Below, piece by piece: positions 4,334 to 25,400 of a stretch of DNA of 64,000 nt. The DNA lies in the NCBI GenBank assembly GCA_040954595.2, contig CM082587.2, positions 8,313,403 through 8,377,402 of the forward strand, given 5' to 3'. Under the pieces are notes generated by a model. The model worked only from the letters and a program-made list of their open reading frames with translations. It had not been told where the DNA came from and ran no database searches. The DNA is from Balanoglossus misakiensis. Taxonomy: Eukaryota; Animalia; Hemichordata. Position 1 is the stretch's first letter; each line of letters opens with the position of its first letter. Both the position numbers and the translations under genes were made by a program.

Positions 4334-5337
4334 CTTCTCTGTTGTTAGGACAGAGCACTGCCCTATGGGATTGACTGTTCACTAAACGTCTGTAACCAGC
4401 GGTTACAGCTGGAACATGCGTGTGAGACGAGCTAGGCGCTTTAAGTAAATAGTAGTTTCCACTACCCTAGGTAAATCACAGAGGTTACAAATGATAATTA
4501 ATGATAATTATCATCGCTTCATCAAATGATGAATTTTAAAGGATACATTTGTTTCTGTCGCCAAACTAGGCCATTTTTAACTCCAGGAATAAGCCTTTGC
4601 AGCAAACGTCCGAACAGGGTGTGATGCATAACGTTTTCAGGCTCAGCACTTTGCTGGACATAAAGTTTATACAAGTCCTGTGTTGTAATCCATCCATCAC
4701 CTCTCTCATAGTTTTCATTGATCCTGAAAAAAAGTGGATAGGTAACAATTGCCCTTTGTCTGTACTGTACAATAGCCTTTTGTCAGTAGTTTACAGTTTG
4801 TTTATGTAAATAAACCAAACAGGTGAGCCACTGTGTAGCTCTCCCACATTTTGTGTATGAACCAATAAAAAACTGCAAGACATGAAGTTCAGATACAGAC
4901 TTGAGCAGGTCACGCGAATGGGTTCGCATTGCTGCCAAGATCTGAGTTAAAATTAAAACGTATTGGCATATTTTAGCGACTAAAAACCACAGTCCCATGA
5001 GGCTTGTTTCTGGTTATTAGGCCAGCGCCGTGTAAACAAACAACCCTCATATGCGACTGTGCTAAAAAAAAACACACACGCTGCACCACATACATGTACA
5101 TTCGCGATGATAGACTTGCATGGACTGTCATAAACGGTACTCACCACCTCATTGCATTGGATACTTTCACGGTATCTGTACTACTGCCACAATTGTTCAC
5201 CATACAGATCGTGCCTTGAGGCGTGACATACCAGTGTTGCTCCTCCATACTCGTGTATGTCATAACATTTAGAACTACTTGTGCAGTTGGCGTTGCTGCC
5301 GCTGGGACCCTACACACGCGATTGTGCTATACCTTGG

Positions 5338-5660
5338 GCCAAGCTTGGCCGAATGTTAAATGAAGCTTGGCGTCAAAGCTTGGTACAAGAGTTTGCGTGC
5401 CGACCTTTGCCGGAGCTTTTGACAACAAAGATTTGTCAAACCTTGAGTGTACCGACCTTCGTTGAAGATTTTGACAGCCAAGCTTAGCCGAACCTTGTGT
5501 TTGCCGACGTTTGCCGAAGATTTTGCGATCCAAGCTTAGCCGAACCTTTGGTGTACTGATCTTCGCTGAAGATTTTGACATCCAAAGCATAGCCGAACCT
5601 TTGGCCTTCCAATCTTTGTGAAAGCTTAACAATTACCAAGCTTCGGCAAAGGTTGTATTT
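5338..5660. repeat. Left subterminal repeat array of the transposon (CCAAGCTT(G/A)GCCGAACCTT-like motif)
   Basis: About 8 degenerate copies of an AAGCTT-cored motif in both orientations just inside the TIR, typical of CACTA subterminal binding-site arrays. Confidence 0.75.
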
Positions 5661-6519
5661 GTTCTGGGGCTGTGACCTGGCGTTTGACCTCGGGTCAAAT
5701 GTATTTATGCTTGTTCTAGGGAGTCTATTTTTCGCTCAGTTTATGAAGTCAATTCTGCTGCCACATTTTTGAAAAGTGTAAAAGTTTCAACATTCTTCCA
5801 TTACGTCCGGAGATATGACCAAAGAATTGACCAAACAAGCTTGTGATTGTGTTCATTCCCTGTATGTTTGAAAAAAAGGCAGCCGAATTGACCCCTCACA
5901 ATCCTGCTTAGTTTACCTCGAATCAGCCGACCCAGTGTATGTGTGTGATGCATTGACCATTGTAATCGTACAGTCTGATTCGAGACGGTGTACCTGTTTA
6001 CCATATTACACTTGTCTGCACATTACTTGGAAACTTTCACCACAAAAGAAACAGCAGGTAGGTAGATGGTTTGTAATATTGCCGGCCTGAGGTATGTAAG
6101 TTTTTCACCGATTCAGATTTAGATATGCACAGTTGACAATAGTATGCAAATCCTCATCTTGGCCCCCTACTCAGATGGAAATGAAAACTTTAAACGTGCA
6201 GACAGTAAATAAGGAAACAAGTACATTTAAAGCAGAAATGTTACAATAAACTGAGCTTACCTTGGTGTATGTAGATCAAAGTACACATAGCCATGATGTA
6301 AACTGTAGTGTAACTTTATTCAACATTATCAATTCGTACGGTATCTGTGAAGAAAATCAGTAAAATATTGTTATAATAAATGTAGATAAATATAAACATT
6401 GTATTTACTAAAATTAACCCAATTAATAAAGCGATAAAACCAGATAATTAATTGAAAACTGAATAATATCATAGAAAGTAGAAATTTAATGGTTAAAAAA
6501 TTTAAGGTAATTCAAACGC

Positions 6520-9500
6520 CTATTCTTCCCCAAGAAATGCCCGTCTCCTTCTTTCATCCCTCTCCATCCAATAATCCCACTTCCCTTCCCTCCCATCCTC
6601 TAAACAACGCTTGTAATAAGCGTCGAAATTGATCCAGTAGTTGTTTGATTCCTTTAGGGCCCTTGTACCAATACAGCCGAATAGAATTTTCTGGTGTGCA
6701 TAGGCTCTCTGGAACAAATATATATGAGGTAAGTAAGATGGTGAATACAACATTGTCTTAAATTTTTACATTTTCTCATTACAGGTTTGGTTGGATTGAT
6801 GTACACTCTACTTGGTATTCAGAAGAAATAGCATGATGTTCGACCAAGTTACAGTACTAAACAAGAGCAAAAAGTATGACTGCAGCCTCTGAAGGAACTT
6901 TATTTTTTGTTGATTTTTTGATTATTAACGTCAACAAATATTGGGTTCTTATTGAGGTTTACAGTCACATACATCGATTTGAAGATCTACTACACAGATG
7001 ATGATACACATGTATGTATACAAACTAAATGGGTTATACATATAATGTTGTTTATAAGTAAAACACAGTGAACATTAGCTTGGATTAAGAAAGGAAACAC
7101 CTGGCATCAATTTCATCACCTTTTAGATTTAATATATTAAAAACTTATAAATTATACTGAATTCCCACATTAAAGGTATACAGTCGCCTCCAATTTACAT
7201 ACGTCCACATATGGCTGAAATGGCATATTTGGGCGTTCGAAAGAACATATGGCGGCGCTCTTTATTTCACGTGTGACACCCACTGAAAATCAGTGATTAG
7301 CTAGATCTCATTTTGCCATGGTAACTATATTATAGCTGATTTTCAATGGGTGACGGTATACCTTTAACATGAAATCAACTCCATAAAAGTGAAGAAGCAT
7401 AAGTGTCCTATCGGCAAATGTTAAAAAAAAAATACTTGTGTTTATAAGGAAAAATTTTTTAATCCAACCACCAGCAAATTCAAATTTTATGTTTTTTAGG
7501 TTGAAGTTTTATGGTTTCTATGGTTGAAATAAAGGGTTTCTATGGTATATCCCTGTTGAGTATTTAACAAATGTATGTAGTATTGCATGTATTAATTATG
7601 GTGATTTAGATGAAAATATTGACAAAATCAAATGTGGTACTAACCATCATTAGAGTCTTATTGAGCATGCCTTCCAGGTTGACATCCCCAACTTGGAAGT
7701 AGGGCCTCCACAGCATTTTGTTCAGTTCCTTTATTGGAACACCTCTGTTGCTTTGAGTTCTTAGGAGCTGTATAGATAAAAAAGACGAATGAACCATGTA
7801 GACTCGAACATAAAGTCTGCAAGTATGAACATGATTCATGTGTTAATATGTATAAGAATTTGTGTGTTATTTGTGTTCACACATTGTACTTACCTTGGCC
7901 CTTACATCTCCTCGCCAATCAGTAAACTTTTTGAGGGCATATGCAATCATTTTCTGAATGTTTGAGGATGTCGCCTGGCCAAATTCAGAAATCAATAGAT
8001 TTTTAATTTTGTCCTTGAAAAAAAAAATGAATAATATATAAGTTTGAAATATTGCTGATATTGGGTTTTGTGAACTTGTTAAATTTGCTGTTACTTAGAC
8101 TCAATTAATCTCTATATAGGAACTTCCTCACGTATAAGAGTTATTTGTACATAAAATATTTCATGCAAAAATCCTAATGCAGGCATACAGAATTACCATG
8201 CTTTCATATTCATTTTAAAGGGTTGTACCTTTGTGTAATGAAATTAAGGCTTTATTATGAGTATATTAAACTAAATATGATAATAATGATGATAAATAAA
8301 CCATATTTTTACATGAGCACTGTTGGATGATAGTTCATTAACTTATACTTGCCATGAATTCTGGAGGTAAGTTATCATTACCAGTATAAAGATAGGTATT
8401 CCTTGTGAACAGATCTTTCAAATAACATAGGTATTCATGCTGTGAAAAAAATCATAACAGTTTTTTTTTTTTTAATCTACCATTCTGTATTCATATTTTA
8501 CAGAAAAAGAACAGAGAGCAGGTGACAGACCATTTGCTCAATGTCATGAAGGCAAATAGTTTTCCGAGAACACATAGTCCAATACTTGGGCTCTAATTGT
8601 CTTAACACATCCTACCTACCTCATACATTTAATATTATAACATGATATTAATTATATGGGGCCATTTTACCTTGCATTTGGCTCTCTCTATCTTCCATTC
8701 TGCTTTGCCCTGTTCTTCTAATCTCTCAACTCTTCGTTTTAGTTGTTTCAATTCTTTTAAAATCTCTTTCAGCATGATGTTGTTTTCTTTTGTCAGCTGA
8801 ACTGTTGTAACACACATTCAAGAGACATTTATTATACACTACATTTATGTAAAAAAAAAATATGGAAATAGTTTTTTGATGCAAAGCCTTGAATTTACAG
8901 ATTTTGGAAATGGAATGTTATAATTTTTAAACTTAAACATGCATTAAGGAAAAATTGTATAAAAAACGGTTATGAGCCAGGTAACAACCTGCATCGATGT
9001 CACTGCTTTCTGTCACTGCGTGTACATTGTTAGCTTCCTGGTTGCTCTCTTGAGAATCCTGTCAATAAAAGGTAATCGCTAAGAATACCCGTTTGAGGCA
9101 ACTGAAAACAAATACCGGTATTAAGCATAACCAATACATATGAGGGCGTACGGACGTCTTTGATAGCGTATTAAATCCATAATCGTTTGGGTGTTTTTTT
9201 ACATGCAAAGAAAAGTTTAACCTTTATACGTGTCGCCTTGAATACTGTAAAACGGGTTATTTTTGGAAAGCTTTCGAAATGGCTTTGATTGTTTACACTT
9301 ATATGAGAACGCTGACATGGAAGTGCTCTGACCTGGTAACCTTACACCCATTCATATTTAAATTGCATACATTTCATTCACCAAAACAAAGAAACCCGCA
9401 CTGAGCCGAGTGCCGACACGGGTTGACATGACCCTGTAACCTTATACCCATTCACATGTAAATTAGTTCATTCATAAAAATCAAAACAAAAAACAACAGA

Positions 9501-9698
9501 GCATCTGAATCGTTCGTATGCCTTATCCTTTACCCCCAATTTTTTTTTTGAATACAGTATGATTTAGTAACCATGACACATTCCCGACAAATGCTTTTGG
9601 GCCATCATTCTTTCTTTAAATTGAATTTTGAACAAATACACACTTACGTCAAATAAATCCTCATTGCTTTCAGTCCCATCGCGTTCGAGTTCCGCCAT
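6520..9698 (-). CDS. Transposon accessory protein, 7 exons, ~256 aa: acidic N-terminus, coiled coil, helical C-terminal domain; function unknown
   Basis: Exons 9698-9648, 9058-8989, 8801-8671, 8439-8353 (GC donor GCAAGT), 8013-7894, 7767-7645, 6708-6520. All phases join into one stop-free frame, MAELERDG...LKEILKELKQLKRRVERLEE...RRRRAFLGEE*. Confidence 0.75.
7174..7363. mobile_element. Kolobok-like MITE in the last intron of the accessory gene
   Basis: TTAA|AGGTATACAGTCGCC ... GGTGACGGTATACCT|TTAA. Confidence 0.75.
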
Positions 9699-9965
9699 CG
9701 CCTATGTAGGTTATTGTAACAAATACTGTTAAGAATATAATGAACCAACTTCGTGCACGATTGTTGACAAAGCGCAAGATGTACATGAGAGTCTTTGGTT
9801 TACACGGAAATGTCATGAACTGGCTGGATACGTGCAGTTTGTATGTTACTGTGCGCGTGAGCGCGTGAGCTCGTGAGATTGTCGTCTGCTGTAATTTGAT
9901 TGCTTAATATTATAGTGACGTATTGAAAGCTGGTTGGTTGATGCACGAAGCAGACGAGACCAGAG
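9699..9965. promoter_or_regulatory. Putative bidirectional promoter of the two transposon genes
   Basis: Only 267 bp separate the two divergent ATGs; locally CpG-richer (TGTGCGCGTGAGCGCGTGAG). Confidence 0.5.
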
Positions 9966-12900
9966 ATGGCAGAAAGTATGGGTCAGGATCGTATTTTCAG
10001 CTGCAAAACCTGTCAGTACAAAACCTTTCGAGATTCCAACTACCGGCGACACGTACAGAGTAAAAGGCATCGAACCCTATGTGCGTTAGATAAGTGGCAG
10101 GTTACAGGGACAGCGACACCAACGTCAAAATTTTCTGATTCATTCATTTGTGACGACCGTAATGAAAGTGCGGATAATTTTTGCACTTTCACTGAGGCGG
10201 AAAGTATCGAAAACCACAATTCCGACACTGAAACAGACGACGATGGCTTGGTAGAATTAAGCGATAGAAATTGGTATCCTTTTCCAAGCAAGATTTTCTT
10301 TTTGTTATATACATTATGCCATTCTGGACCAAGACCGATGGTAAGCAGTTTATATTATACATTGTACAATTGTACTGAAACTTTTCTTGGTTGCATTTTT
10401 GCTGTTATTGTTTTTGCAAGTTAAATACCGAAAAATACATAATTTTTTTAACTATTTTTCTTATTAAATTTATTATTATACAATTACAGTCTCGGGAAAC
10501 AAGGAAATTTGTATGGTACATCCTCCATGAGCTAAACGTTCCAAATGTACCATCGATGGAATCGGTCATGAGTTTTGCCATTCCTGGATTCAATGAAGAA
10601 CTTGTTGGCCAGGTACATATTTAATCATACGATTTGTTAAACATTTGTAAATTTAAAAAAAAAATCACTTTTAAAGCAAAAGTATACTCGTAAATTATCA
10701 TTTTATGGCAACCACTTTAAATGTAATTTAAACAAATGAGACAAGAATCTGTATAGCAAGTTCATTTTTATTTTTATTTTAATCCTTTAGGCAAATACAT
10801 CTGATGGGACACCTTTCTCTTTCATCAAACCATCCGTTTTAATCAAACTCCTCTTAGGGAATCCTAAAATTGCAGCATGCGTGGATAGGTAAGGTATAAT
10901 ATTGATCGTTTCATATCATAATACAAGAAGCACGGTATCAAAAACATTTTAAACCATCACATGTACATATTTTTATTGGTGTTAAAATATAACTTCTACT
11001 TTTGTCACAAAATTTCAAAAGCTTCATGTAGTCACTCATAGGAAGCACTCTTAAAGGGACAAAGCCTCTCTCTCTCGCCGTCTTTTTTCCATAATTATGT
11101 TTGATACAAGACACCATTTACTAGTATGTTATTCTCCAGGTGTTATATTGTGAATCAATGCTCGACCACACTCAACTTCCATTCCACTTGTAGATACAAA
11201 AGTGAAATACTCGCCAAAATGAATAATCGGTTTTTACCATTTATTCATTTTGACGAGACTTTTCTCTCATATTCTACAAAAGCGACAGAGGCTTTGTCCC
11301 TTAATAAGGTGCATTCAGTTTCAAACAAACCCATCTAAAGTAAAAAAAAAGATACAGCTAGTGGGGATGTAAGGTCTAGGAATTCTCTTACAAATACTAT
11401 ATGAAAGAAACCCCAACAATCTGTATACCTGGCATTGAAAAGCCTATACATTTGTCCACTAAATTAACTAGTCGATCCTGGTTTTGATGTTGTATAGATT
11501 TCCAGTGGTGACTGACAAAATCTATGAACAATGTGAAGGACAGAAGTGGGTGGAAGATATTCCAGCACCATATTGGAAGGGGATGTTTGCTGGAGACAGT
11601 GTGTTATTAATGAATGGAGAAACTGTAATAATCAAGTCATTCTTAAGAGAGGTATGAATATGTCCCCTTCTAGGATCTAGTGATATGAAATTTTCAACTG
11701 CTCTAATCCAGGAAAGATAAACATCACACATTACATTTGAAAAAAATACATATCATTTTAAAACATTATTCATGAATTAAACACTACATATTTAAATAAC
11801 AGTAAGTGTAATAATTTGATGATTTAATACAAAATCTTACCACAGAAAATTTAACACATAACATTCAAATCTCATATCTACTTGTAACAGGTCGGTCATA
11901 ATGAAGCTGGTACCTTTAGAAAGATGACAGCTGAGGTACAGAGTGTATTGCTACCTGGTGATGAGCACCTCAACCCATTCAGGGATCTGCTTCATGAAAG
12001 GTACTCTCCTTGGGACACTATTTTAATATCGTTCATCTTTCAATTTACCTAAAGGGACAGTCTCTCTCTCGCTGCATTTTTTCCAATACTTATGTTTGAT
12101 ACAAGACACTGCTTATGTTATTCTACATGCTGATATATAGTGAATCAACGTTCAACCACACACACCTTCAAATCTGCTTGTAGACACAAGAGTGAAAAAC
12201 TCGCCATAATGAAAGTATGGGTCAGGATCGTATTTTCAGCTGCAAAACCTGTCAGTACAAAACCTTTCGAGATTCCAACTACCGGCGACACGTACAGAGT
12301 AAAAGGCATCGAACCCTATGTGCGTTAGATAAGTGGCAGGTTACAGGGACAGCGACACCAACGTCAAAATTTCCTGAACCATTCATTTGTGACCGTAATG
12401 AAAGTGCGGATAATTTTTGCACTTTCACTGAGGCGGAAAGTATCGAAAACCACAATTAAAGGGACAAAGTCTCTTTCTCGCTGCCATTTTCCCATTAATT
12501 ATGTTTGATACAAGACACCATTTATGTTATTCTACATGTGGATTTATAGTGAATCAATGTTGGACAACACGCAACTTCCATCCCACTTGTAGACACGAGT
12601 GAAAAACTCGCCAAAATGAATAATCGGTGTTTACCGTTTATTCATTTTGGCGAGATTTTTACTCTCGTATCCTACAAACGGGATGGAAGTTGTGTGTGGA
12701 TGAACGTTGATTCACTATATATCCACATGTAGAATAATATAAACAGTGTCTTGTATCAAACATATTTAATGGAAAAAAGGGCAACGAGAGAGAGACTTTG
12801 TCCCTTTAAAAATCAATACGTACAAGTCTGGATTTTTCTTTCAAAAACTTAAAATTAAATATTGAACTCATTAGAACACATGCCTTTGTCAAGTGTACAG

Positions 12901-15900
12901 TTTATTGTAATAGACTGTATGTATTTTTAAACTATATCTACTATATATATAGGTCACTAGTCCCAATTATTGGCGAGTCAAAGATTGTAGACACCTATGA
13001 AATATTAGGTACCAGTAACCATGAAGACTACATAGTCACACATGTCATGAATACTGACAACGGCCGGTGGACTTTTAAAGAGGCTACAGCAGAGGTAAGG
13101 GAAAGACAATACATCAACCTATTTCCAACCAAGCAACACCAAAGCATTAATTTAAAAGAATATTAAAATAGTCTTGACTAGCAAATTTCTATTGTGTACG
13201 AAAATATTGCCACGGCATTCTACTTAGGTGATTGTGGAAAATAAAAACATTCAGTTTTTACATAAAATATCATGATGCCTGAGAGTGATTTTTGTTCATT
13301 ACACTTACATTTGGCTATCACGAAAAAGTAAACTACAGTCTATGTAATTACTTGTCTAAGTCAGTGTCAATGCAGTTGGCAAAATTGCTGGGTAAATGGC
13401 TGGTTTTCTGATTGTATTCCTACCACCATCACTGTATACTTTAAATGTCTACAATTTAATTGTGAAACCTTTTTCAGGAAAAAGTGGTATACTCCAGAAA
13501 CACTCGACGGCTTCCGATGTACACCTTACCACTGAACATATTCGTTGATGACACGAGTGGCAATAAATCGAAGCAGTGGAACAGCTACCATGTTCTGTCT
13601 GTCCAGTTGTCTGGCTTACCAATCAAAGAAAAGGATAAACTTAGAAATGTTCACTTCCTTTCAACATCAAACATCGTGCAGTCAACAGAATTGATCGTTC
13701 CTGTTATTGAAAACATCAAGCAATGCAATGATGGTGTTCTTGTGTTCGATGCATCTACTGGGAAAGATGTAATTGTGAGACCAAAGATTGCAATTGGTAT
13801 CTTCGATAGTGTGATGGGATCAAAAATGGCAAATCACTTAGGAGCTACTGCAAACCATCCATGCAGAGTGTGTGATGTAAGTAAGAGATGTGCAATACTG
13901 TGCCGAAGACGTTCCATTCTCACAAGGTCCTTGGGGTTGTGGTTGAATGTCTAGGCTCAAAAAGAACAAAATAGTCTGGAATAAATTAAAGATAAATGTA
14001 TATGTTTTGTAACACAGATTAGCAAGACTACTCTTTCTCAAGTTGGGACTCGGAGAACCAAAAACAAAGTAAAGGAAATAATTAAAGAAATAGAGGCAGC
14101 TGAAACAGAGAGTGAGCGAAGGAAAATTCGTACACGAAATGGCATCAGAGAGGGCTACAACAGCTTTCTCGACATTGACAATTTTAGTCCCTATAGGTAC
14201 GTATGATTTGACCAAATGTAGATATTGTCTACCGAGGAAACAAATTCATTAAATTTGTTAAATAACAAGATACAATCCGGCTTTACATTTTACGCAGAAG
14301 ATGAACAGTTTGTAATTTAAAAAGTGATATAAAATATGAAAAAATTGCATCCAAATTTAGGTGGACATCTACATCTGTTTACTGAAGAGAAACAGATATT
14401 GAAGTGGCTATGATTTAATCTAGAAAATGTATATTGTTATTACCAGTGACACACCCCAAGATAGGCTGCATGCTGTCCTCATTAATCCAAACAAGAACCT
14501 GTTCGGTGAGATTATGAGAATAATGGATGAAAACGACAGAGCAATCCTGAAGCTTTCTTTGGAGGAATTCGATTGGTCTTCATTTGAAAGACGGCTAACT
14601 TCAAAGTCAATGGACCACTACGGCAGTTTCATCGGAAGGCACTACAAAATCTGGGTATGTTAGTTCTAATGAAAACAAAAACAAAACAGAAAGGTGGAAG
14701 AATTTTTTCCAATTAATCAACACAGTAATTTGAAAATAAGAATGCAGGAAGAGCAAAATGATAAAATGGATATTAAACAATGACAGGACATAGTCTATAA
14801 TATGTATCATTTCATGTTTGTGAATATATGTGTGTGTGTGTGTATGTCATTATATAAAAAGACATATAAAGTATAATTTCTTATTTTACAACAGATACAA
14901 ATTGCCCCTTTCCATCTGGCACGGTGTAGCTCTGTCCCAATTGGATACATAAAAGCATACTGTCTTTTGTCAGAAGTAAGTTACAGACACATATAGTAAT
15001 TGAAATTTTTACAAAAAGTGAAGAGAACTAAAACTACTTACCTCCATTCTTTGATGATGTACGTGCAGTCTTATCTACCTTTGGGGAGCACAACCAAAGC
15101 TATCATCTCGTTACTTCTATGCAGTCTACAATGAAATGATTGAATTCAGCAGCACTACTTCTAAAAATGCCAGAGAGTTACAAATTGATTTTGGTAACTG
15201 TGATGACGAGTATATCTGGAAACAAATTTTAAAGGAAAGGAGGATTATACACAATGGAGTGAACAGTATGATTGCTTTAAAATTTTATTATTCCCCTTTC
15301 TGTACCATGTAGATAACTCATCTCATATATAGACATGGATCTTATACAAATGAAGAACTGCAAAATCTACAATTGGCAGTGCAGGAGTTGGTATCAAAAC
15401 TGACGGAGATTGGCAGTACGCTAATAAGGTATCTGACCTTAAAACTTCAGAAAACCCCAAAATCAAGTACGTGGCCGAGCAAAAAAACAAACAAAACAGG
15501 TGTGAATGGGTCTGGCAGACCCTTGTCCGGACAATTTTGGTCCCAGTCGAATGGGGTGGTTTGTGGTTGACCCTGGTCTCAACCTGGTGTTTGTGGACAC
15601 ATTTTGTCAGACTCTGTTCCTAGTTGACGCCCTTTACAGTTAACATAACAGTGTAGGCTATCATTTGACAATGGTAAAATTTGTATAAACAATCAGAAGA
15701 GAATTACATGGTTCTGCTTTATAAGGTCAAAGATTGGTGTGAGGCGACATTGGCCAGGACTATTTCGTTTTAGAAGCATGCATATAACTCACCTAAATTA
15801 ATTTCTTTTAATTGTAAGGAAGCAGACGACACACTATCTTCTGCACATCGCAGGTGATATCATCAAGCACGGGCATGCCCAAGGCTACCAAGCTGAAAAG

Positions 15901-18033
15901 TTCGAGGAAGAAAATGGGAGGGTGAGGTTGGTGCAAACATACACGAACCGACACAATCCCAGTTCGGATACAGTAAATCATCTCGCAAAACAAGAAGTGT
16001 TGCGGTTCCTAATAGATGGTGGGAAGTGGAAAGTAAATGAAAATATGTACGTAATTTCCAAATGATAGACCTAGCTATGACAGTTATATGCCATAGACAA
16101 TAGTTCATGACAGGCAGATATTTTTTCGCATACATGTAAGGTTATACTGACCAATAGAAAAGACAGACTCCCAACGTCTGGGGAAAATACTTTAGAACAA
16201 TTCCGCTGACAGGATTTTGACCAGCTGCTGATTGTCCGATCTAGACTATCAGTGTGACCTGAAATATTTAGAAAGTTCTAGAAGGTCATTCAAATGTCAA
16301 GTTGGAATTGGTAAAACCCTGTTAGAACAATTGTGCAGTATAGAAACAATGCCTCACACATGTTTACTCACCTCTTTCCACAGACCATTACGTTGCATTT
16401 TCAAATGACCTGTATTCTCTCTGTCTGTCATCAAATTGGCAACGTAGGGAGACTTTGAAAGATAACCTGTACACTTTGTCATCAAATACTTTCTCTATGC
16501 ACTGTTCCAAAATCATCCCTAAAAATACAAAATATAAGTTTTCCATATGTCATATCAATTTGTTCTAATGATAATAACATGGACTACAGAAAGCATAATT
16601 CAGACCTCATGTCATCTTTGACTGGTATACACAATTTCATTTGTTGCAGATATGAGGCAGCTCAAGGTGTCAAAGGGTTTGGACAGACAGAAACTGTCAA
16701 CAACTACCTGTTTGGCAGAGAAGCCAGCGTGGTCAAATTTTCCGGCAAACTGGTCCAACCGCACCGAGACCAACACCATCACAAAAAGACAGCATCAACC
16801 AAGGATATTCCACTACACCACCAACAGCTACTGGACTTCTTCCAAGTTCCAAACTTAACATTGGGTGACATAGGAAATGGCAGCTACGCAACCTACAATG
16901 GTGTGGTTGCCAAATCGGATGAGACGGTTAGAGTAGGATCGTCAGTCTTATACAAAGACAAAGACAGCAAGGTATTAATACTAAATATACAGGTGACTTT
17001 TGATGGCATCAAAGAATCGAACACATAGTACTCAAGCTGAGCTCAGATAACTCAAAATTCCATTCCAGTTGACATTTGAAATCTTATCAAGCTTTGTTTT
17101 TTCTCATAAGATATTTAAGCAGTAACCCCACCTCGGACAGGTACATGTATACAAAAATTTTCAACTCCTTGTAAACAGTAACTTTCAAAACAAGGAGAAT
17201 ATTTGCTAACCAAAAAAAAACAAAGAAACTTACAAAAAACTCGCTAAATATTGAATATTTCTGATATCAGAATTGAACAAAAGTTGCACACATATATGTG
17301 TTATGAAATTGTATCCTAAATTTCAAAGCAATCAGAGAAAACAATTTCAAAACAGTTTTAAAGAAAATACTTGTTCGAAAGTGGCAAAAATACAAATATC
17401 ACCAAATTTGTACAATATCTTACTTCAATCACTATAAGGAACAAAGTTCAATGCAATGTGACATGCGGAAACAATTTTTTAAAAAAAATTGGAAAAAAAA
17501 TTCCCCAATAACACATTTATGCAAATATCAGAATTTTTTTTAGCAAAATCTTACTTGGGTTCCCTCTATTTGATAAATTCTGACTAGAGTCACCCCATGA
17601 ACATCTATATCAAGTTTCAAATCAAAGTTATCCATCTGTAATGGCTACATTATATTGATGTCAACAGGTAAAGATTGGAATGGTCAGCGCAATCTTTGAA
17701 GTCAAGATAGGCAGACATCCAATCAGAGGCCTGGTACAGATCCAGGAGTACAATGTACATCAAGAATTTGATGACTTGTTTGGATGTCAGGTTGTACACC
17801 GGGAAGGGAGCTACAAACTAGTACCACCGCAAAACATCATACAAATGGTCAGCATCGTTCACGACTGTTGTGGTGGACATTGTCACCTACAGCTGTTGAA
17901 TAAAGTATTTCAAATAGAAAGAAACAACGTGAGACGCCTTAAAAGCGTATTTAAATGCAATGCAAATCACAATGTGTATCTCCTCAACAGATTTAGGTTC
18001 ACACACCTTAAAAAAACATACGGGGTTGACTAG
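9966..18033 (+). CDS. Transposase of CMC/EnSpm-Plavaka-like RNase H-fold type, 14 exons, ~966 aa, N-terminal C2H2-type zinc finger
   Basis: Exons 9966-10340, 10490-10612, 10791-10888, 11498-11651, 11891-12000, 12953-13094, 13478-13876, 14018-14196, 14447-14654, 14895-14975, 15313-15428, 15819-16046, 16650-16971, 17668-18033. All introns GT-AG, phases consistent, no internal stop seen. Motifs: CKTC..RHVQSKRH, WYPFPSK, FVDDTSGNKSKQWN, IFDSVM..HPCRVC, DTPQDRLH, HYLLHIAGDIIKHG..EKFEEEN, VHDCCGGHC..YLLNRF. Confidence 0.85.
11055..11300. mobile_element. Kolobok-like MITE (AGGGACAAAG TIR) in transposase intron 3
   Basis: TTAA-AGGGACAAAGCCTC ... GAGGCTTTGTCCC-TTAA; same family as 12053-12210 and 12460-12805. 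Confidence 0.75.
12053..12210. mobile_element. Truncated copy of the AGGGACAAAG MITE in transposase intron 5
   Basis: Left half only; aligns with 11055-11220 and 12460-12620, then breaks into the exon-1 duplicate. Confidence 0.7.
12211..12456 (+). repeat. Intronic duplicate of part of transposase exon 1 (zinc-finger region)
   Basis: Near-identical to 9972-10220, with a few substitutions and a 3-nt deletion; gives the 80-aa ORF 12217-12459. Confidence 0.9.
12460..12805. mobile_element. Complete AGGGACAAAG MITE (long palindrome) in transposase intron 5
   Basis: TTAA|AGGGACAAAGTCTC ... GAGACTTTGTCCCT|TTAA; the two halves are long imperfect inverted repeats. Confidence 0.8.
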
Positions 18034-18230
18034 TGGACAGTTACATGCTCACAAAGTAGCCGTGTGGTGCCTCAGTTACCCAGAGGAGGGAGGCTATGGG
18101 TGCTACACCTTGCCCAAGGGTGACCCAGCACAGCAGCAATTAAGGGTGTAGTGACATTCTCCCCCAAGCCCAGGTATTCCCATACTAGGGCCTTGCTGCC
18201 GGATGCAGTTTATTGTCATACCCAGGACAT
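18034..18230 (+). mobile_element. Possible 3' tail of an RTE-type LINE/SINE directly after the transposase stop
   Basis: Abrupt rise in GC; ends in GATGCAGTTTATTGTCATACCCAGGACA, which resembles RTE-type 3' ends I recall from invertebrate genomes. No TSD found. Confidence 0.3.
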
Positions 18231-18455
18231 TACGTATACAGTATGAACAAGTGTCATTGTATTTTTTTTACATATAGTCTTTTGTAGTGTCACTTGAAAA
18301 GTTAATCAAAAAATTGATGCTTCATTTACTAAACAAGTAAAAGTGTAAGCTGTATTCTATAGTATATATCTGTAGTACTTAAGCAATAGAATGTTTTATA
18401 TAAAATAGTACTTTTGATCATTTTTGGTTGTTCAATTTTTTACATCCTTTTATAT

Positions 18456-20446
18456 TGTAACCAGGCATAGACTTCCCCGATTTCCGCCTCTATAATTGTC
18501 CCCAAGGCCCTCCCTCACCCAGACTTGGATCATGCCTTGGGCTTTCGTTCATTTGTGAGAAACCACTTGGATTGTGGGGCTTGTGATTTCCACTCGGGGC
18601 ACCCCAATGTTCTTCATTTGGGTCTGAAAATTGAACTTTGTGTCTGAAAGTGTTTCTGGGCATGTGCGTCATTTGCATTCTGTTGGCAGGGTGCATGATC
18701 ATTATAACACAATATTGCTTGTGGCACAAGTTCAATTAAGATTATACATTGGTTTAATGTTATTATTCAGTTTATATCCACCAGTTTTCACATCTTGTTA
18801 TTTTTGACATTAAAACTTTGTTGATTTGACTTTTGTCTGGCTGCACTTTTCGTTTTTTTTTTTGAAGTTTCAATTTCATGAGAACTACATGCATTAACTT
18901 TATATTGGTGCTATATTGAGGAGGGCAACTACTTTTGGCATTTACACCAGGGCTCCTATTGCTACAATTCATGTAACTGTCTGATGAATAGTCAGAATGA
19001 GAGGAACTTCCTGTTTTTGTGTCGTACACAACTTTCTTGTGAAACTCTGGTGTCAACCTAAGGCGGGGCACGTCTTTCAACATGCCAGGTGTAACCCTAC
19101 CAAATTTGTTTCTAAGAGCAATAATTGCTCGGGCTACCTTCTCCCCTACCCCTGGTAAAGTTTTCAGGGTCCTAATGTTACATGTATTAATATACACTTC
19201 GTGATTGAGGTCATCCTGATAGAATCGGAGACAGCTGGTCAATCACCTCAACAATTAACATAACAAAATTACCCCAGAGGTTCAACTTCAATTCAAAAGG
19301 AACGTCCTGGGTAATAGTGAAACAATTAGGTGCTTATCCCCGGAAGCTAAATCAACCTGGGAAATCACTGTGGTGGGCCCTTCGAGATGTTTGATGAGCC
19401 CGTTAGTGCTGTACTTCTTCCCCTCGTAACTTTTTTTTAAACGTACAGCCAAGTTCGCCAAAATAAAAATCACAATACTTGACACACACTGCTGGTTGTC
19501 CCAGGCAACACCAGCTTAAGGTTGATAAATATAAAACGTTTTTTTATTGAAAAGAATAATCACGAACGTAAATAAATAGGCCACTCGCATGAACCGAGTG
19601 ATAAATAAAAGATGTAAACGGAGTAAAATAAACGAACGCTCACTCACTCCCACACAAAAAAGACGCGGAATGTACCATACCGTTCTCTGGAAACGGCTGG
19701 AAAAGTTTCTGCGCATGCGCGGAACGCTGCTCCGAAACACGTTTTTCTGGAGTGAGGGTCGCTAAAAAATAGAACAGACGACACACGTAAACGCGAACAA
19801 ACAAAATGTGCGATTGAAAATTCAGAAAAATATTCAAGAAAATCCTGAACGCTATCAAAAACAGATGAATGATTCATCAATCGGAATGAAAAACGTGTTG
19901 AAACCAAGAGCAGACTGCTGCCTCTACGACAATGGCCCCGTTTCCACCCACGTGGTTAGTAAGAAAATCCACGGAAAATTCGCTGAAAACTATCTTCAAA
20001 ACCCCGGCACCGTCCCTAAATATCACTAAAAATCCCCCGCGGAAATTAAGAGTTTGCCCAGTGTCTTCTGGCCCCGGTAATTCTCGATATCCCACTTTTC
20101 CTTACCCAGAAAAGCCCCACGTCTCACCCGGACGCAATCGCCGAATTCCGCCGAAGCTCAGAAACACCACTCTACTCCTTCCCCGCGTAACGTGTACTTG
20201 GACCATTTGCCAAGTCTACCTCACTCCAGGTTCGCACGCAAACTGCTCGCAGCGCCAATGTTGTGAAATAGCCGATTCGCCGCGTCCTGACTGACCTATT
20301 ACCACGGGCTATAACTTGACTACGTCTACATGCTCTGCACAGCCCCAAAACCACGCTGTTGGTCCATCCTCAGCCAGGCGTAGACTCCTCCACCGATTCC
20401 CACCGTACCTGGAGGACTGCACTGACGCATGGCGGGGCAGGTCACA
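18456..20446 (-). mobile_element. Probable ~2-kb solo LTR (Gypsy-like) nested in the DNA transposon
   Basis: Ends TGTAAC...GTCACA (TG..CA with 5/6 inverted match); flanks TATAT/TGTAT (4 of 5 match); GC/CpG-richer than its surroundings; contains a decayed ORF start. Confidence 0.45.
18772..19242 (-). pseudogene. Helix-hairpin-helix (ComEA/HHH_3-like) ORF, probably frameshifted
   Basis: VYINTCNIRTLKTLPGVGEKVARAIIALRNKFG matches the VNINxAxxxELxxLPGIGxxxAxxIIxxR HhH pattern. The nearest ATG (MTSITK, ~19215) is out of frame by one base, and coding-like sequence resumes in 18735-18490. Confidence 0.65.
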
Positions 20447-20820
20447 TGTATATGAACTGATCAAAATGGCGGGAAGAAAATTAGATACAATGTAAACGCT
20501 CTACGTGCGAAGTGTTTTTTGAGCTATAGAAATCGAATTCACTGAATTAATGACATAAAGGTTCTGTGTTTCGTGATATACTTTGAATATCTTTTGTCAT
20601 TTTCTCGAAAAAGTTGGTCGATATACTGAACAAATCCGTTTTCCTCCAACGTGCAGGCGAATATTTGCATGTGAAAAGCACACATAGAACGTCACCTATT
20701 CAAATGCAAATTACTAAAAATGACGGAGACTTGCATAAGGGCCCTTTTCCATTGCGGCGGCCCAAATAATATTAAATGAAAATACCACAAACTATGACCC
20801 TGTAAAAAAAATCTTTGCAA

Positions 20821-20823
<3 letters not shown>

Positions 20824-20860
<37 letters not shown>
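20824..20860. repeat. (CA)n microsatellite
   Basis: About 18 CA units. Confidence 0.95.
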
Positions 20861-20867
<7 letters not shown>

Positions 20868-20989
20868 AACGCAATAAAAAAAAATGCCCGTTGTGTGGTC
20901 AAACAGTACTCGTAAGTTGTAGTATCCCTAAGCCAGCGGTAATTAATCGTGAAGTTTTACATGCCGCGGCGCATTTTGATCTATTTCGT

Positions 20990-21210
20990 CGAAAGGTTTG
21001 TCAAATCTTAAAAACAAAGCTTAAATGAAGCATGGTGAGAGAGGTAAGCTTTTTTAAAGGTTTGGCCAAAACCTTCCCCCAAGATTTGATACACAACCTT
21101 GGCACAAGATTTGGAGATAGGCTTGGAGTAACATTTTCAACAAACAAGCTTGGCCAAACCTACAGACGAATACCTTCGGCCAAGATTAGAGTACGGCCAA
21201 GCTTGGCCAA
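20990..21210. repeat. Right subterminal repeat array of the transposon
   Basis: Repeated AAGCTT / TTGGCCAA / ACCTT motifs mirroring 5338-5660. Confidence 0.7.
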
Positions 21211-21703
21211 AGGTATTGCACAATCGCGTGTGTAGAGGTCAAAGGTTAAATGTTTCATTTGATTTTTGAGCAGTTTTCGGGGTTGTGTGTCGCAGGAAAA
21301 CGATCCGTTTTTCAAGGTTTCCCGTTCGTACTTTAGAAATCGGTGGTGACTGGTGTGAAGTAAATTTATTGCTCTTTATTAGGGAGTAATTTTTTTCTTC
21401 GTTGTCGGTAATTTGTGTCAAAAATCCTTCGGCGAAGAAAATGGTCAGTGGAAATTGTTGGCCATTCCGTCTGCTTCGTTTCGAACGAGAATGCACAGCG
21501 CCCCCACGGTAAAACTGGGCTGGGTTAACGTTGACAGCCAGCTCCACGATTAAACACATTTACCAATCTCGCATGCAGTTATTTACATCCTCTGTCAACT
21601 ATAAAATACATCCGTGAGATCATAGCAGTACGTAAAATGGAAAAAAAAATGTGAATCTACAATCGAATATTGGATTCACGTCAAGCGCCGGCGAGGTCCA
21701 GAA

Positions 21704-22490: not shown

Positions 22491-25400
22491 ATTAAAGCTG
22501 CAAGCAGCGTTGAAGGGGCCCAAGCATAGAGTTAATAACCATTAGACTCCATTCAGGGTTGTACCATTCAAATGCGTAGTCTGTATTTGCTCTGGATGTG
22601 GAGATATGGGGAAGTAGGCAACCACCCGAAATGGATGTCTTACAAGTACAAACACAACAACCAAAGGTGAACTTCTACGTTGTAAGTACTTCAGTTACTT
22701 CAAAGGTCAGCTGAGGGTATCCAAAAATTGGGCCAAAAATTAGGATTCTTATTTGGTTCATATTCAAGACAACGGAAAATAATCGCTGTTTGGGTTTGTC
22801 AAATTATATATGGCCATAATAATGAGTTAAGCAAGTAAGTTACAGGTAGCCCCTAAAATTTAGCATTTCCTACCCGACCCCTCTAAACACCTGGCTATAC
22901 ATGATGTGCATGCTAACATATGGAAAGCAGGTCAATGGACACCTGATGTCACCCAAAAATTTGACAAAAAATGTTCTTTCCTGTTTATGTCATGTGCAAC
23001 AAATCCTACATTTGCAGCCCTTTCACTTTGCCTACCATTAGGTATGCACGTAATACATGAATCAAGCAGGTGTCGCAGGTATCCGCTGTATTTGGCATTT
23101 CATGATAGTTTCGCTCCGAATACCAAAGCTGCACTTGTACAACGGGCTGAGGTATGGCACTGTACGACAGAGGTCATCCAAATCAACTTATACATTTGGG
23201 CAAAAACCAACTGACACTTACATTCGTCCCTGTGGAACAAAAACCACACCTATCGCCCTGTTGGTTAGTGTCCAATTAAATGTACAAAATCAATGACTTA
23301 GGCAGGTGCAACAGGTGACCCCGCCTTTGGTATATCTTTATGGTCCCATCCATATATACCCCCCCCACGCCAAAAGTAGGTGAAATGTCACATAAGATCG
23401 CCCATAAGGCTGCATTCACAAACACCTCTTGAAGGGGGGGGGGGGGGGCGGGAGAATTCAATTTTTTTTACCGCTAATTTTCACATGCCCCCCGTACACA
23501 ACCCGAAAAATTTCAAATCCCCCCCCCCTTCCGAACTGCCAAAATTTTGAAATCCCCCCTACCCATTTTCTTTCACAGAGCAAAACACATCACCTAGTAT
23601 CTATCTTGTAAAAAAAGAAAAACAGCGCTCCCATTTTTTAAGAATTTGTATCCTGTGTTGGGTGACATTGTAAACCGAGAATTGAAGGGGGTGGGTTTGG
23701 GAGGGGGTGCACGTAAGAAAATTTTATAAAATACAGAGCTCAAAGCTGCATTTTAATGAACCCGGCAAAGGCAAATTAACTCAACTACCGGTATGTTGGG
23801 GAGGACAACTTTAACCGTCGACGCTCATAGTTATCATGGGTCCCCTGACCTGGGACACTAGATAAACCAATCAATGATTGAAAGGTGTTGATGAATGGAG
23901 GGGGTGGGTGTCCCCCTCCCCATTAGAAAATTTTGTAAAATAAAGGGCGCGAAACTGCATTTTTGTGGACTCAAAATAAATATTTAGTCGTCAAAGTTTT
24001 CAAGTCCCCCCCTTTCAGTCCCTAAATTATTTCCAATCCCCCCCTTACATACCCTCAATTTTTTTCAAATCCCCCCCCTCAATTCTCCTGCCCCCCCCCC
24101 CCTCCTGAGGTGTTTGTGAATGCAGCCTAACTTGACAGGAAAATCGGACTTCATATTGATCCATTTGCAACAAATACCACACTAGCATCCCTTTCATTGA
24201 CCCCACAATTACGCATGCACATAATTGAGTTACGCAGGTGTCACAGGTGACCCCCGAATCGGGCGTATTATTTTGGTCCCATACAGCTGCATGAAGCTGC
24301 GTGCCATTACTGGCGACCTGATAACCCCCACGGCCACCTGCGGGCCAACCCCCATACTGAACTTTCAGTTGCAACGTCACGACTGAAGTAGGAACTGTTG
24401 AACGGCAAAGAAGCCTGATCTCTGATTATTGCTGGTACCATACTCCCTTCGTGCAAGAAAATCATTGGTCTGCTGACGTATTTCGGCCACATTAGCGACT
24501 GAGGGTCAAAGTCCGCAGCCGCATTACATTGAATGTTAACCAGTGTAGCCGGGTCTAGATAGAAACATTTGAACGGCAACAGCTAACAAACTCAGCGTAA
24601 TTCAATAAAACGCCCTAACACAGCCTGAACGCCGATAATGTGTTATCCCAAAATTCATTCCGTGGAAAATAATCACTGGTCTGTTTACGTATTTCAGCCG
24701 ATTTTCCAAGGTCTACTGCAACCCGCCAGAAGTGAGTAGCCTGCTAATGAGATCTCCACAACATTACGTAATGACGGTCAAAGTCCGATGCCCCAGTGTC
24801 CATCCTCAGCCCACCAAAAATGCGAAAAATATTACAAAAATCTTCTTCTCAAAATCGACGTGGCCTAGGACCTTGAAATTTGGCACAGGGGATTTTGGCC
24901 ACATGGTCTACAAAAATCGCGAAAAGAATGTACATTCCCCCATTAACGTGCAAATTAGGTCAATTTGAAAATTTCGCTCGATTATAGCCACCAAGTCACG
25001 TGACTAATTACAAATTCAAAGGGCAGGTGCACCAGTACTCATGGGCCCCAATCATCGTGCCAAACTTCATAGGCGCAGGTGCCGGAATTTCAGAGAAAAA
25101 CGGGAGCAAAAAAACGACTCAAGAAGAAAGAAGAAATATAGCTGCAAGCAGCGATGACGGGCACAAGCTTAAGCCGAAGGTCAAAGGTCATATGTGGTCA
25201 CCCAAAATTTGGGCAAAAAATGTTGATCCCATACTAGTCCAGGTCCAACAAAAACCAGACCTCTAGCCCTATTGGTTTGTCTGAAATTATATATGCGCAT
25301 AATTAATTATGTAAAGTGTAAGACTCCATTAATAGTTCGATCCATCCAAACATAAATGCTGTACCTGTTCTGGATGCCGAGATATAGGAAAATGGGTCAA

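What the first reader, a model, noticed from the sequence alone, without database searches (positions are those of the whole stretch)
5313..21232. Apparently intact, intron-rich two-gene giant DNA transposon of the poorly described DDxSGNxSKxWN transposase lineage
Seen: 39-bp TIRs with 2 mismatches, a TA TSD, subterminal repeat arrays, and two head-to-head genes whose 14 and 7 exons splice into stop-free frames. All nested insertions fall in introns or outside the CDSs. Known: CACTA/EnSpm elements have CAC termini, 2-3 bp TSDs, subterminal repeats and a second TnpA-type protein. Inference: this is a potentially mobile two-component element whose transposase (FVDDTSGNKSKQWN / DTPxxxLH / HxLLH..E.FE..N / HDC) belongs to a family I recall mostly as uncharacterised fungal and animal proteins. 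Here its ends, target site and partner gene are all visible in one locus.
Basis: partly seen in the sequence, partly recalled or inferred. Interest (0 to 1): 0.85.

Follow-up and report, generated by a model that had tools for sequence, protein, structure and literature searches.

The report
Intact two-gene RAG1-like animal transposon
This 16-kb stretch of an animal genome has matching inverted ends, TA on both sides and two unbroken back-to-back genes, one predicted to fold like RAG1 (the enzyme that shuffles antibody genes) with a predicted chromatin-reader-like tail; it is likely an animal member of a jumping-gene lineage recently named in fungi, not a new kind.

Summary
Observation confirmed: TIRs 5313-5351/21194-21232 match 37 of 39, TA flanks both ends, and head-to-head genes of 14 exons (966 aa) and 7 exons (256 aa, one GC-AG intron) are stop-free and match Ptychodera proteins at 57-69%. 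A Ptychodera proxy of the transposase folds like RAG1/Transib (Z 19.5) with the DDE, CxxC and HxxxH residues intact, plus a C-terminal BAH-like domain (Z 9-10). The family is not nameless: it fits ESTA (Kojima 2025: CAC ends, TA duplication, RAG1-like, fungal) and CNEST (2026, active in Cryptococcus, clade includes animal proteins). Fungal-type metagenome relatives show one element at two TA sites, ESTA/CNEST-like ends, and a conserved second gene, weakly similar to the partner's homologues. 'Giant' is overstated: introns and nested repeats make the size. Mobility, expression and the partner's role are not shown; contig data only hint at a second site. This scan has met ESTA-like elements before in fungi and dinoflagellates. 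Verdict: an intact animal variant of a recently named lineage, useful as a test system.

The parts
5311..5312 (.). left TA, presumed target-site duplication
   Evidence: sequence
5313..5351 (+). left TIR, 39 bp, begins CACACGCG
   Evidence: 37 of 39 match to right TIR
5339..5661 (.). left subterminal repeats (CCAAGCTT-cored unit, 52-bp period)
6520..9698 (-). gene B, partner, 7 exons (9698-9648, 9058-8989, 8801-8671, 8439-8353, 8013-7894, 7767-7645, 6708-6520), 256 aa; acidic N-terminus, coiled-coil-like segment, helical body; intron 4 GC-AG
   Evidence: 69% to P0152
7170..7367 (.). nested TTAA-bounded MITE in gene B intron 6 (Kolobok-like label is recalled)
   Evidence: very high contig depth and loose ends
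9699..9965 (.). 267-bp divergent intergenic region, CpG-rich (o/e 1.32 against 0.55 for the window); likely shared promoter
9966..18033 (+). gene A, transposase, 14 exons (9966-10340, 10490-10612, 10791-10888, 11498-11651, 11891-12000, 12953-13094, 13478-13876, 14018-14196, 14447-14654, 14895-14975, 15313-15428, 15819-16046, 16650-16971, 17668-18033), 966 aa
   Evidence: N-terminal C2H2 finger zf-met 21.7 bits, cut-off 21.2
13478..16046 (+). exons 7-12: RAG1-like catalytic core, D358, D444, C463/C466, H535, H667/H671, E691
   Evidence: conservation in 129 homologues; fold of proxy P0001
16650..18033 (+). exons 13-14: predicted BAH-like C-terminal domain (about aa 765-955)
   Evidence: proxy model residues 465-657 match BAH domains, Z 8-10
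11051..11304 (.). nested TTAA-bounded MITE in gene A intron 3
12050..12809 (.). gene A intron 5: half MITE (12050-12213), 97.6% copy of exon 1 (12211-12457), full MITE (12456-12809, high copy)
18456..20446 (-). nested 2-kb unit with TGT..ACA ends, 4-of-5 flanking duplication and a start-less HhH ORF (19242-18775); likely retroelement remnant, not cargo
   Evidence: (HHH_3 E 8e-9)
21067..21193 (.). right subterminal repeats
21194..21232 (-). right TIR
21233..21234 (.). right TA, presumed target-site duplication

Best explanation
This is an intact two-gene element with inverted ends and TA flanks, likely a recently mobile cut-and-paste DNA transposon of the ESTA/CNEST lineage (CMCT clade), whose transposase is predicted to fold like RAG1 with a BAH-like tail and whose partner gene likely helps it act on the ends. 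Shown: ends, open frames, conserved D358/D444/E691 and the CxxC..HxxxH zinc site. Inferred from RAG1/Transib: the enzyme pairs the two CAC ends, cuts them out (probably via hairpins on the donor flanks) and inserts with a 2-nt stagger at TA. Inferred with less support (about 50%): the helical, coiled-coil partner binds the subterminal repeats or the transposase and promotes end pairing, much as TnpA does for En/Spm (recalled); it is probably an ancestral part of the lineage, since fungal-type relatives carry a conserved second gene inside their ends. Inferred (about 35%): the BAH-like tail contacts nucleosomes and steers target choice. Both genes would be driven from the shared CpG-rich 267-bp gap.
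For: Ends and frames. Catalytic and zinc residues conserved in 117-125 of 129 homologues and present in gene A. Proxy P0001 (57% identical) model pLDDT 90.7, pTM 0.88; best PDB matches RAG1 (E 1e-11; Z 19.5, rmsd 4.1, 366 aligned), BbRAGL Z 17.8, HzTransib Z 17.0; tail matches BAH domains (ZMET2 Z 9.9, rmsd 3.7, 128 aligned; 14 of rows 8-22 in the 48,161-chain search are BAH proteins). Homologues in Puccinia, Melampsora, Phakopsora (8 of 8 rust-like picks), the hosts of ESTA; a profile of 17 rust-type proteins matches gene A at 243 bits across aa 9-952. Gene A hits 77 of 80 metagenome loci; L062/L063 are one 7,936-bp element, 99.95% identical, at two different sites, each TA|CAC..GTG|TA; 7 of 12 loci scanned show a CAC(A/G)G end plus TA just past the second gene, as in CNEST (CACGG) and several ESTA entries. 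Second gene found in 16 of 26 loci with >=2.8 kb downstream, 12 of them by construction; its profile ranks the three Ptychodera partner homologues first among 180 proteins (E 4e-4, 6e-3, 0.07); Atlas feature hits for P0152 are fungal hypothetical proteins at 0.92-0.93. Contigs of one sample: one carries the right end plus TAG and then appears to leave the window sequence (record 16).
Against: ESTA and CNEST transposase sequences could not be read (supplement cells cut at 400 letters; CNEST given only as an accession), so clade membership rests on shared features, not on a tree with them. The terminus here is CACAC, rare among ESTA entries seen (most CACCAC) and not CNEST's CACGG. One of 16 homologues scanned (Argopecten P0018) passes the Plavaka cut-off and Atlas feature neighbours include Plavaka clusters. 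The partner link to fungi is weak: the window's own gene B does not score (792 of 2000 shuffles as good; absent at E<=3), hhalign probability is 2% with 1 of 80 block shuffles as good, and the blocks were chosen after seeing the likeness. Fungal partners lie downstream on the same strand, not head to head. All structure comes from a proxy. Several nested insertions show the copy has sat for a while. No empty site was among the rows shown.
Confidence: 0.75

Rival explanations
1. Same chemistry, but the animal elements form their own CMCT lineage beside ESTA and Plavaka, with an independently acquired partner gene.
For: Gene A groups with Ptychodera (100/100) and bivalve proteins (99/96), apart from the basidiomycete group (100/99) in an unrooted 27-row tree; identity to non-Ptychodera homologues is only 21-32%; head-to-head layout, 39-bp TIR and CACAC end differ from fungal members; partner has sequence homologues only in Ptychodera.
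Against: Full-length match to the rust profile, shared DDxSGNxSKxW, DTP..LH, HxxxH and E motifs, same TA and CAC ends in fungal-type relatives; PMC12810828 reports animal proteins inside the CNEST clade.
Confidence: 0.15
2. A domesticated, immobile locus: the two genes are kept as host genes and the ends are relics.
For: Both frames open despite at least five nested insertions, all avoiding exons; CpG-rich promoter with CpG-depleted gene bodies, as for long-expressed genes; no second copy within the 64 kb.
Against: TIRs still 37 of 39 with TA flanks and subterminal repeats intact; Ptychodera holds several divergent copies of both genes on different contigs, the pattern of a transposon family; hint of another right flank.
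Confidence: 0.07
3. Gene B is captured cargo with no role in transposition.
For: No family, fold or binding evidence for B; Pfam gives nothing above cut-off.
Against: Ptychodera partner homologues P0152 and P0167 lie on the same 13.99-Mb contig as transposase pieces P0003 and P0004 (adjacency not shown); fungal-type relatives keep a conserved second gene inside their ends.
Confidence: 0.2

Closest known systems
[quoted passage not shown]
   Same: [quoted passage not shown]
   Different: All ESTA entries seen are fungal (Puccinia, Melampsora, Agaricus); most begin CACCAC; no TET/JBP gene here; no conserved partner gene or BAH-like tail is mentioned in the parts read; 21 exons, head-to-head layout.
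CNEST of Cryptococcus neoformans; PMC12810828 (read: passages on CNEST/CMC, supplement rows; tree figure not seen)
   Same: TA duplications, TIRs of 33 bp starting CAC, CMC-type DDE core absent from Repbase hits; its clade is said to hold unclassified animal transposases including an oyster one; shown to be active.
   Different: 7.2 kb, CACGG ends, one gene described; sequence not available for direct comparison.
RAG1 / ProtoRAG (BbRAGL, PDB 6b40) / Transib (HzTransib, PDB 6pqx)
   Same: Core fold (Z 17-19.5), zinc site, CAC ends, two-gene layout as in ProtoRAG.
   Different: 2-bp TA rather than 5-bp duplication (5 bp recalled), partner is helical rather than a RAG2 kelch-PHD protein, genes diverge, extra BAH-like tail.
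EnSpm/CACTA (PF02992) and Plavaka (PF18759)
   Same: CA..TG ends, subterminal repeats, second gene; predicted structures align at TM 0.70-0.76 by query.
   Different: No Pfam match for P0001, P0002 or the window exons scanned; ends are neither CACTA/G nor the Plavaka TGT or CATCA types.

Membership tests
ESTA (Kojima 2025) | TA target-site duplication | tested here: met
   TA outside both TIRs; empty site not seen here, but a family member sits at two different TA sites (L062/L063)
ESTA (Kojima 2025) | 5'-CAC..GTG-3' termini | tested here: met
   CACACGCG..CGCGTGTG; ESTA entries seen begin CAC
ESTA / CMCT clade | DDE triad with C(2)C and H(3-4)H between second D and E | tested here: met
   D358, D444, C463/C466, H667/H671, E691; 117-125 of 129 homologues
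ESTA (Kojima 2025) | Transposase most similar to RAG1 by structure-based comparison | tested here: met
   On proxy P0001: top hits RAG1, Z 19.5
ESTA (Kojima 2025) | Falls in the ESTA clade of the CMCT tree | not testable with these tools
   ESTA sequences and the Newick file are cut at 400 letters in the supplement copy; only indirect link through rust homologues and ends
CNEST | TIR beginning CACGG | tested here: not met
   CACAC here; CACGG ends occur in metagenome relatives L010, L015, L022, L028
CNEST | Transposase in the CNEST clade | not testable with these tools
   Only the accession is given
EnSpm/CACTA proper | Transposase_21 (PF02992) domain above cut-off | tested here: not met
   None in 6 gene A exons scanned or P0001/P0002; 5 of 16 homologues reach only 14-18 bits, cut-off 28.6
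EnSpm/CACTA proper | CACTA/CACTG termini | tested here: not met
   CACAC
Plavaka | PF18759 domain | tested here: inconclusive
   No match for window exons, P0001 or P0002; 1 of 16 homologues passes (P0018, 32 bits)
Plavaka | TGT..ACA or CATCA..TGATG termini (PMC12730594) | tested here: not met
Transib / ProtoRAG | 5-bp target duplication (recalled) | tested here: not met
   Flanks CCCTA / TAGAG share only TA
ProtoRAG | RAG2-like kelch-PHD partner | tested here: inconclusive
   No Pfam kelch/PHD match; model all-helical but pLDDT 46
BAH domain | BAH fold | tested here: met
   Z 8-10 to many BAH chains on the whole-protein proxy model; domain not folded alone
BAH domain | Aromatic cage / histone-mark binding | not tested
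   No residue-level structural alignment available

The most novel reading that the evidence does not exclude
The ESTA/CNEST lineage is a eukaryote-wide, obligately two-component RAG1-like transposon system whose conserved helical partner is a new kind of cofactor and whose transposase carries a built-in BAH chromatin reader, a parallel to RAG1 plus the RAG2 PHD finger; this locus is an intact, still active animal copy in which all of it can be assayed.
Probability: 0.25. Interest if true: 0.7.

Novelty: new variant of a known kind. Interest (0 to 1): 0.45.

Why it matters
ESTA/CNEST was named only in 2025-2026, from fungi, and has no Pfam model that passes on its closest proxies. In the papers searched no complete animal element, conserved partner gene or BAH-like tail turned up. 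An intact animal copy with both genes, ends and target lets one ask whether RAG1-fold transposases outside Transib/RAG need a partner and read chromatin, which bears on how RAG1-RAG2 arose. It is not a new kind of element, and Repbase Reports and subscription journals were not searchable.

Tried and rejected
No whole genome is held, so copy number and empty sites could not be searched. No RNA holder listed among 3 runs of one sample: no evidence on expression. Contig depth over the element (about 80-108 in X1, 41-300 in X2) against the left flank (54-71) was not used as copy number, as the tool warns and the two runs disagree. Complex prediction of P0001 30-671 with P0152: no answer, score 0.01, alignments not used. 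Single-sequence model of P0152 had pLDDT 46; its fold search gave only generic helices, best Z 7.5. Sequence search of PDB with A1: 0 hits at E<=10. The viral-contig scan did not run (alignment too diverse). Gene B profile against 9,174 locus ORFs: nothing under E 0.5, though 2 of the top 6 were fungal partner exons; tblastn of B against the loci: nothing; hhalign with one L062 fragment: 0.5%; first noisy partner alignment 1.2%; one search stopped on a script error. A generic TIR scan of 39 loci gave mostly chance pairs; in a stricter scan of 34 loci TA was 4 of 17 pairs with a duplication, so only homology breakpoints were trusted. The HhH ORF was considered as a third gene and rejected: no start codon, upstream stop, inside a separately bounded unit. 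BEN-domain likeness of gene B was considered by eye; Pfam gave no support. Iyer 2014 is not held. P0045 was left out of the tree because it was not in A1; no outgroup was available.
Full report
1. Observation. The ends are real: 5313-5351 and 21194-21232 match at 37 of 39 positions, begin CACACGCG and have TA outside each. A 52-bp unit repeats 3.8 times inside the left end; a 19-nt version of its core occurs 5 times left, twice right and nowhere else in 64 kb. Splicing by coordinates gives gene A, 14 exons, 966 aa, all introns GT-AG, no stop, and gene B on the other strand, 7 exons, 256 aa. Gene B needs one GC donor; a Ptychodera flava protein, P0152, aligns at 69% straight across that junction. 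Gene A matches Ptychodera P0002 (60%, aa 1-662) and P0001 (57%, aa 305-958). The host is likely an acorn worm or close relative (inference from these hits). The start codons are 267 bp apart; that gap has CpG o/e 1.32 against 0.54-0.57 in the gene bodies. Nested repeats avoid the exons. Coding sequence is only 3.7 of 15.9 kb, so 'giant' reflects introns and insertions, not cargo.

2. The transposase. P0001 finds 1,327 representatives at E<=0.001 among 1.84 billion. The 30 proteins looked up by name come from Ptychodera, bivalves, a sponge, Pompholyxophrys, Paraphysoderma, agaricomycetes and rusts, with one unnamed. In 129 aligned homologues the columns for gene A D358, D444, C463, C466, H535, H667, H671 and E691 are kept in 117-125 rows. 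Pfam names none of this: no Transposase_21 or Plavaka match in six exons scanned or in P0001/P0002; among 16 proteins scanned five give sub-threshold Transposase_21 scores and one passes Plavaka. The spliced window protein was not folded; the proxy P0001 with 86 rows gave pLDDT 90.7. Its core matches RAG1 (Foldseek E 1e-11; Z 19.5, rmsd 4.1, 366 aligned), ProtoRAG BbRAGL (17.8), Transib (17.0) and P transposase (14.7). Residues 465-657, encoded here by exons 13-14, match BAH domains of ZMET2, BAHCC1, TNRC18, DNMT1 and ORC1 at Z 8-10; in the search of 48,161 chains 14 of rows 8-22 are BAH proteins. These Z values are modest, the domain was not folded alone and the aromatic cage was not examined. 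Atlas models of Plavaka proteins also align along nearly the whole length, so the tail may be wider than this lineage. The N-terminal 300 aa (C2H2 finger) was not modelled.

3. The lineage has a name. Kojima 2025 (PMC12730594; parts 1-3 of 7, passages and supplement listings read) defines ESTA: EnSpm-like elements with TA duplications, RAG1-like transposase and C(2)C/H(3-4)H motifs. All entries at places 1-86 of 88 are from Puccinia, Melampsora or Agaricus and begin CAC. CNEST (PMC12810828; passages and supplement rows read) is an active 7.2-kb Cryptococcus element with TA duplications and CACGG ends, in a clade said to include unclassified animal transposases; I reached it through an earlier scan note. 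Neither paper's transposase sequence was readable, so the tie is indirect. Rust homologues exist (8 of 8 picks) and their profile matches gene A at 243 bits over aa 9-952 (the rows were found with P0001, so this shows homology, not closest kinship). A metagenome scan kept 80 of 112 confirmed loci; gene A hits 77. L062 and L063 are one 7,936-bp element, 99.95% identical, in different flanks, each TA|CAC..GTG|TA; L073/L075 and L015/L032 break homology at like ends. Seven of 12 loci scanned have a CAC(A/G)G end plus TA just beyond their second gene, four of them CACGG. So this transposase family moves, duplicates TA and has ESTA/CNEST-type ends. In an unrooted tree the window protein sits with Ptychodera (100/100) and bivalves (99/96), apart from the basidiomycete group.

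4. The partner. By sequence it has homologues only in Ptychodera (2 hits among 422 candidates); two lie on the same contig as transposase pieces. Atlas feature neighbours are fungal hypothetical proteins of 320-404 aa at 0.92-0.93. The metagenome loci hold a conserved spliced second gene downstream of the transposase, same strand, found in 16 of 26 loci with enough downstream DNA, 12 of them used to build the profile and one a duplicate. That profile ranks the three Ptychodera partner proteins first of 180 (E 4e-4, 6e-3, 0.07) on a shared C-terminal FW..(V/F)D.F pattern. Against this: the window's own gene B does not score, hhalign gives 2%, and blocks were picked after the likeness was seen. 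I put homology at about 60%.

5. Is it mobile? Not shown. Three runs of one sample hold it. Of 7 coding differences among the rows shown, 4 are silent, 3 change a residue, none makes a stop.

6. Mechanism. Shown: architecture and intact catalytic residues. From RAG1/Transib (established knowledge): end pairing, cleavage at CAC, strand transfer; hairpin chemistry is inferred. Partner as an end-binding or assembly factor on the subterminal repeats is inferred by analogy to En/Spm TnpA (recalled), about 50%. Tail as chromatin contact, about 35%.

7. Verdict. An intact animal variant of a lineage named in fungi in 2025-2026. No paper with a complete animal element, the partner or the tail turned up in ten searches; Repbase Reports, subscription journals, figures and full supplement sequences could not be seen and may hold animal families. 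This scan has noted ESTA-like elements, a partner and a reader-like domain in fungi and dinoflagellates (unchecked notes), none by sequence to this protein. Interest 0.45.

Noticed in passing
window 12050-12809: A 97.6% copy of 250 bp of the transposase's own exon 1 sits in intron 5 between a half MITE and a full MITE, with only 2-3 letters shared at each joint; looks like templated repair copying from 2.2 kb upstream.
   Followed up: partly
window 18456-20446: 2-kb TGT..ACA-bounded unit with a PBS-like TGGCG stretch on the minus strand near 19450 and a start-less helix-hairpin-helix ORF (19242-18775); likely a retroelement remnant; contigs show deleted versions (joints 19019-19269 and 19298-19695).
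   Followed up: partly
window 7170-7367, 11051-11304, 12456-12809: Two families of TTAA-bounded palindromic MITEs with very high contig depth and many different flanks.
   Followed up: partly
window about 17190-17300: Another high-depth repeat fragment in gene A intron 13, not identified.
   Followed up: no
window 25178-31130: Blocks of a 210-239-bp tandem repeat rich in AGGTCAAAGGTCA; the element's right flank begins with a similar motif.
   Followed up: no
L062:163-8098 and L063:591-8526: Near-identical complete 7.9-kb element at two TA sites with only about 11-bp TIRs and a diverged second gene: a young fungal-type family member.
   Followed up: partly
L015:6522-14778: Complete-looking 8.3-kb element, TA|CACGG..CCGTG|TA, holding the transposase and the conserved second gene in tandem.
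   Followed up: partly
L054:563-4843: Very long perfect inverted repeat around the transposase match; may be an assembly artefact or a foldback.
   Followed up: no
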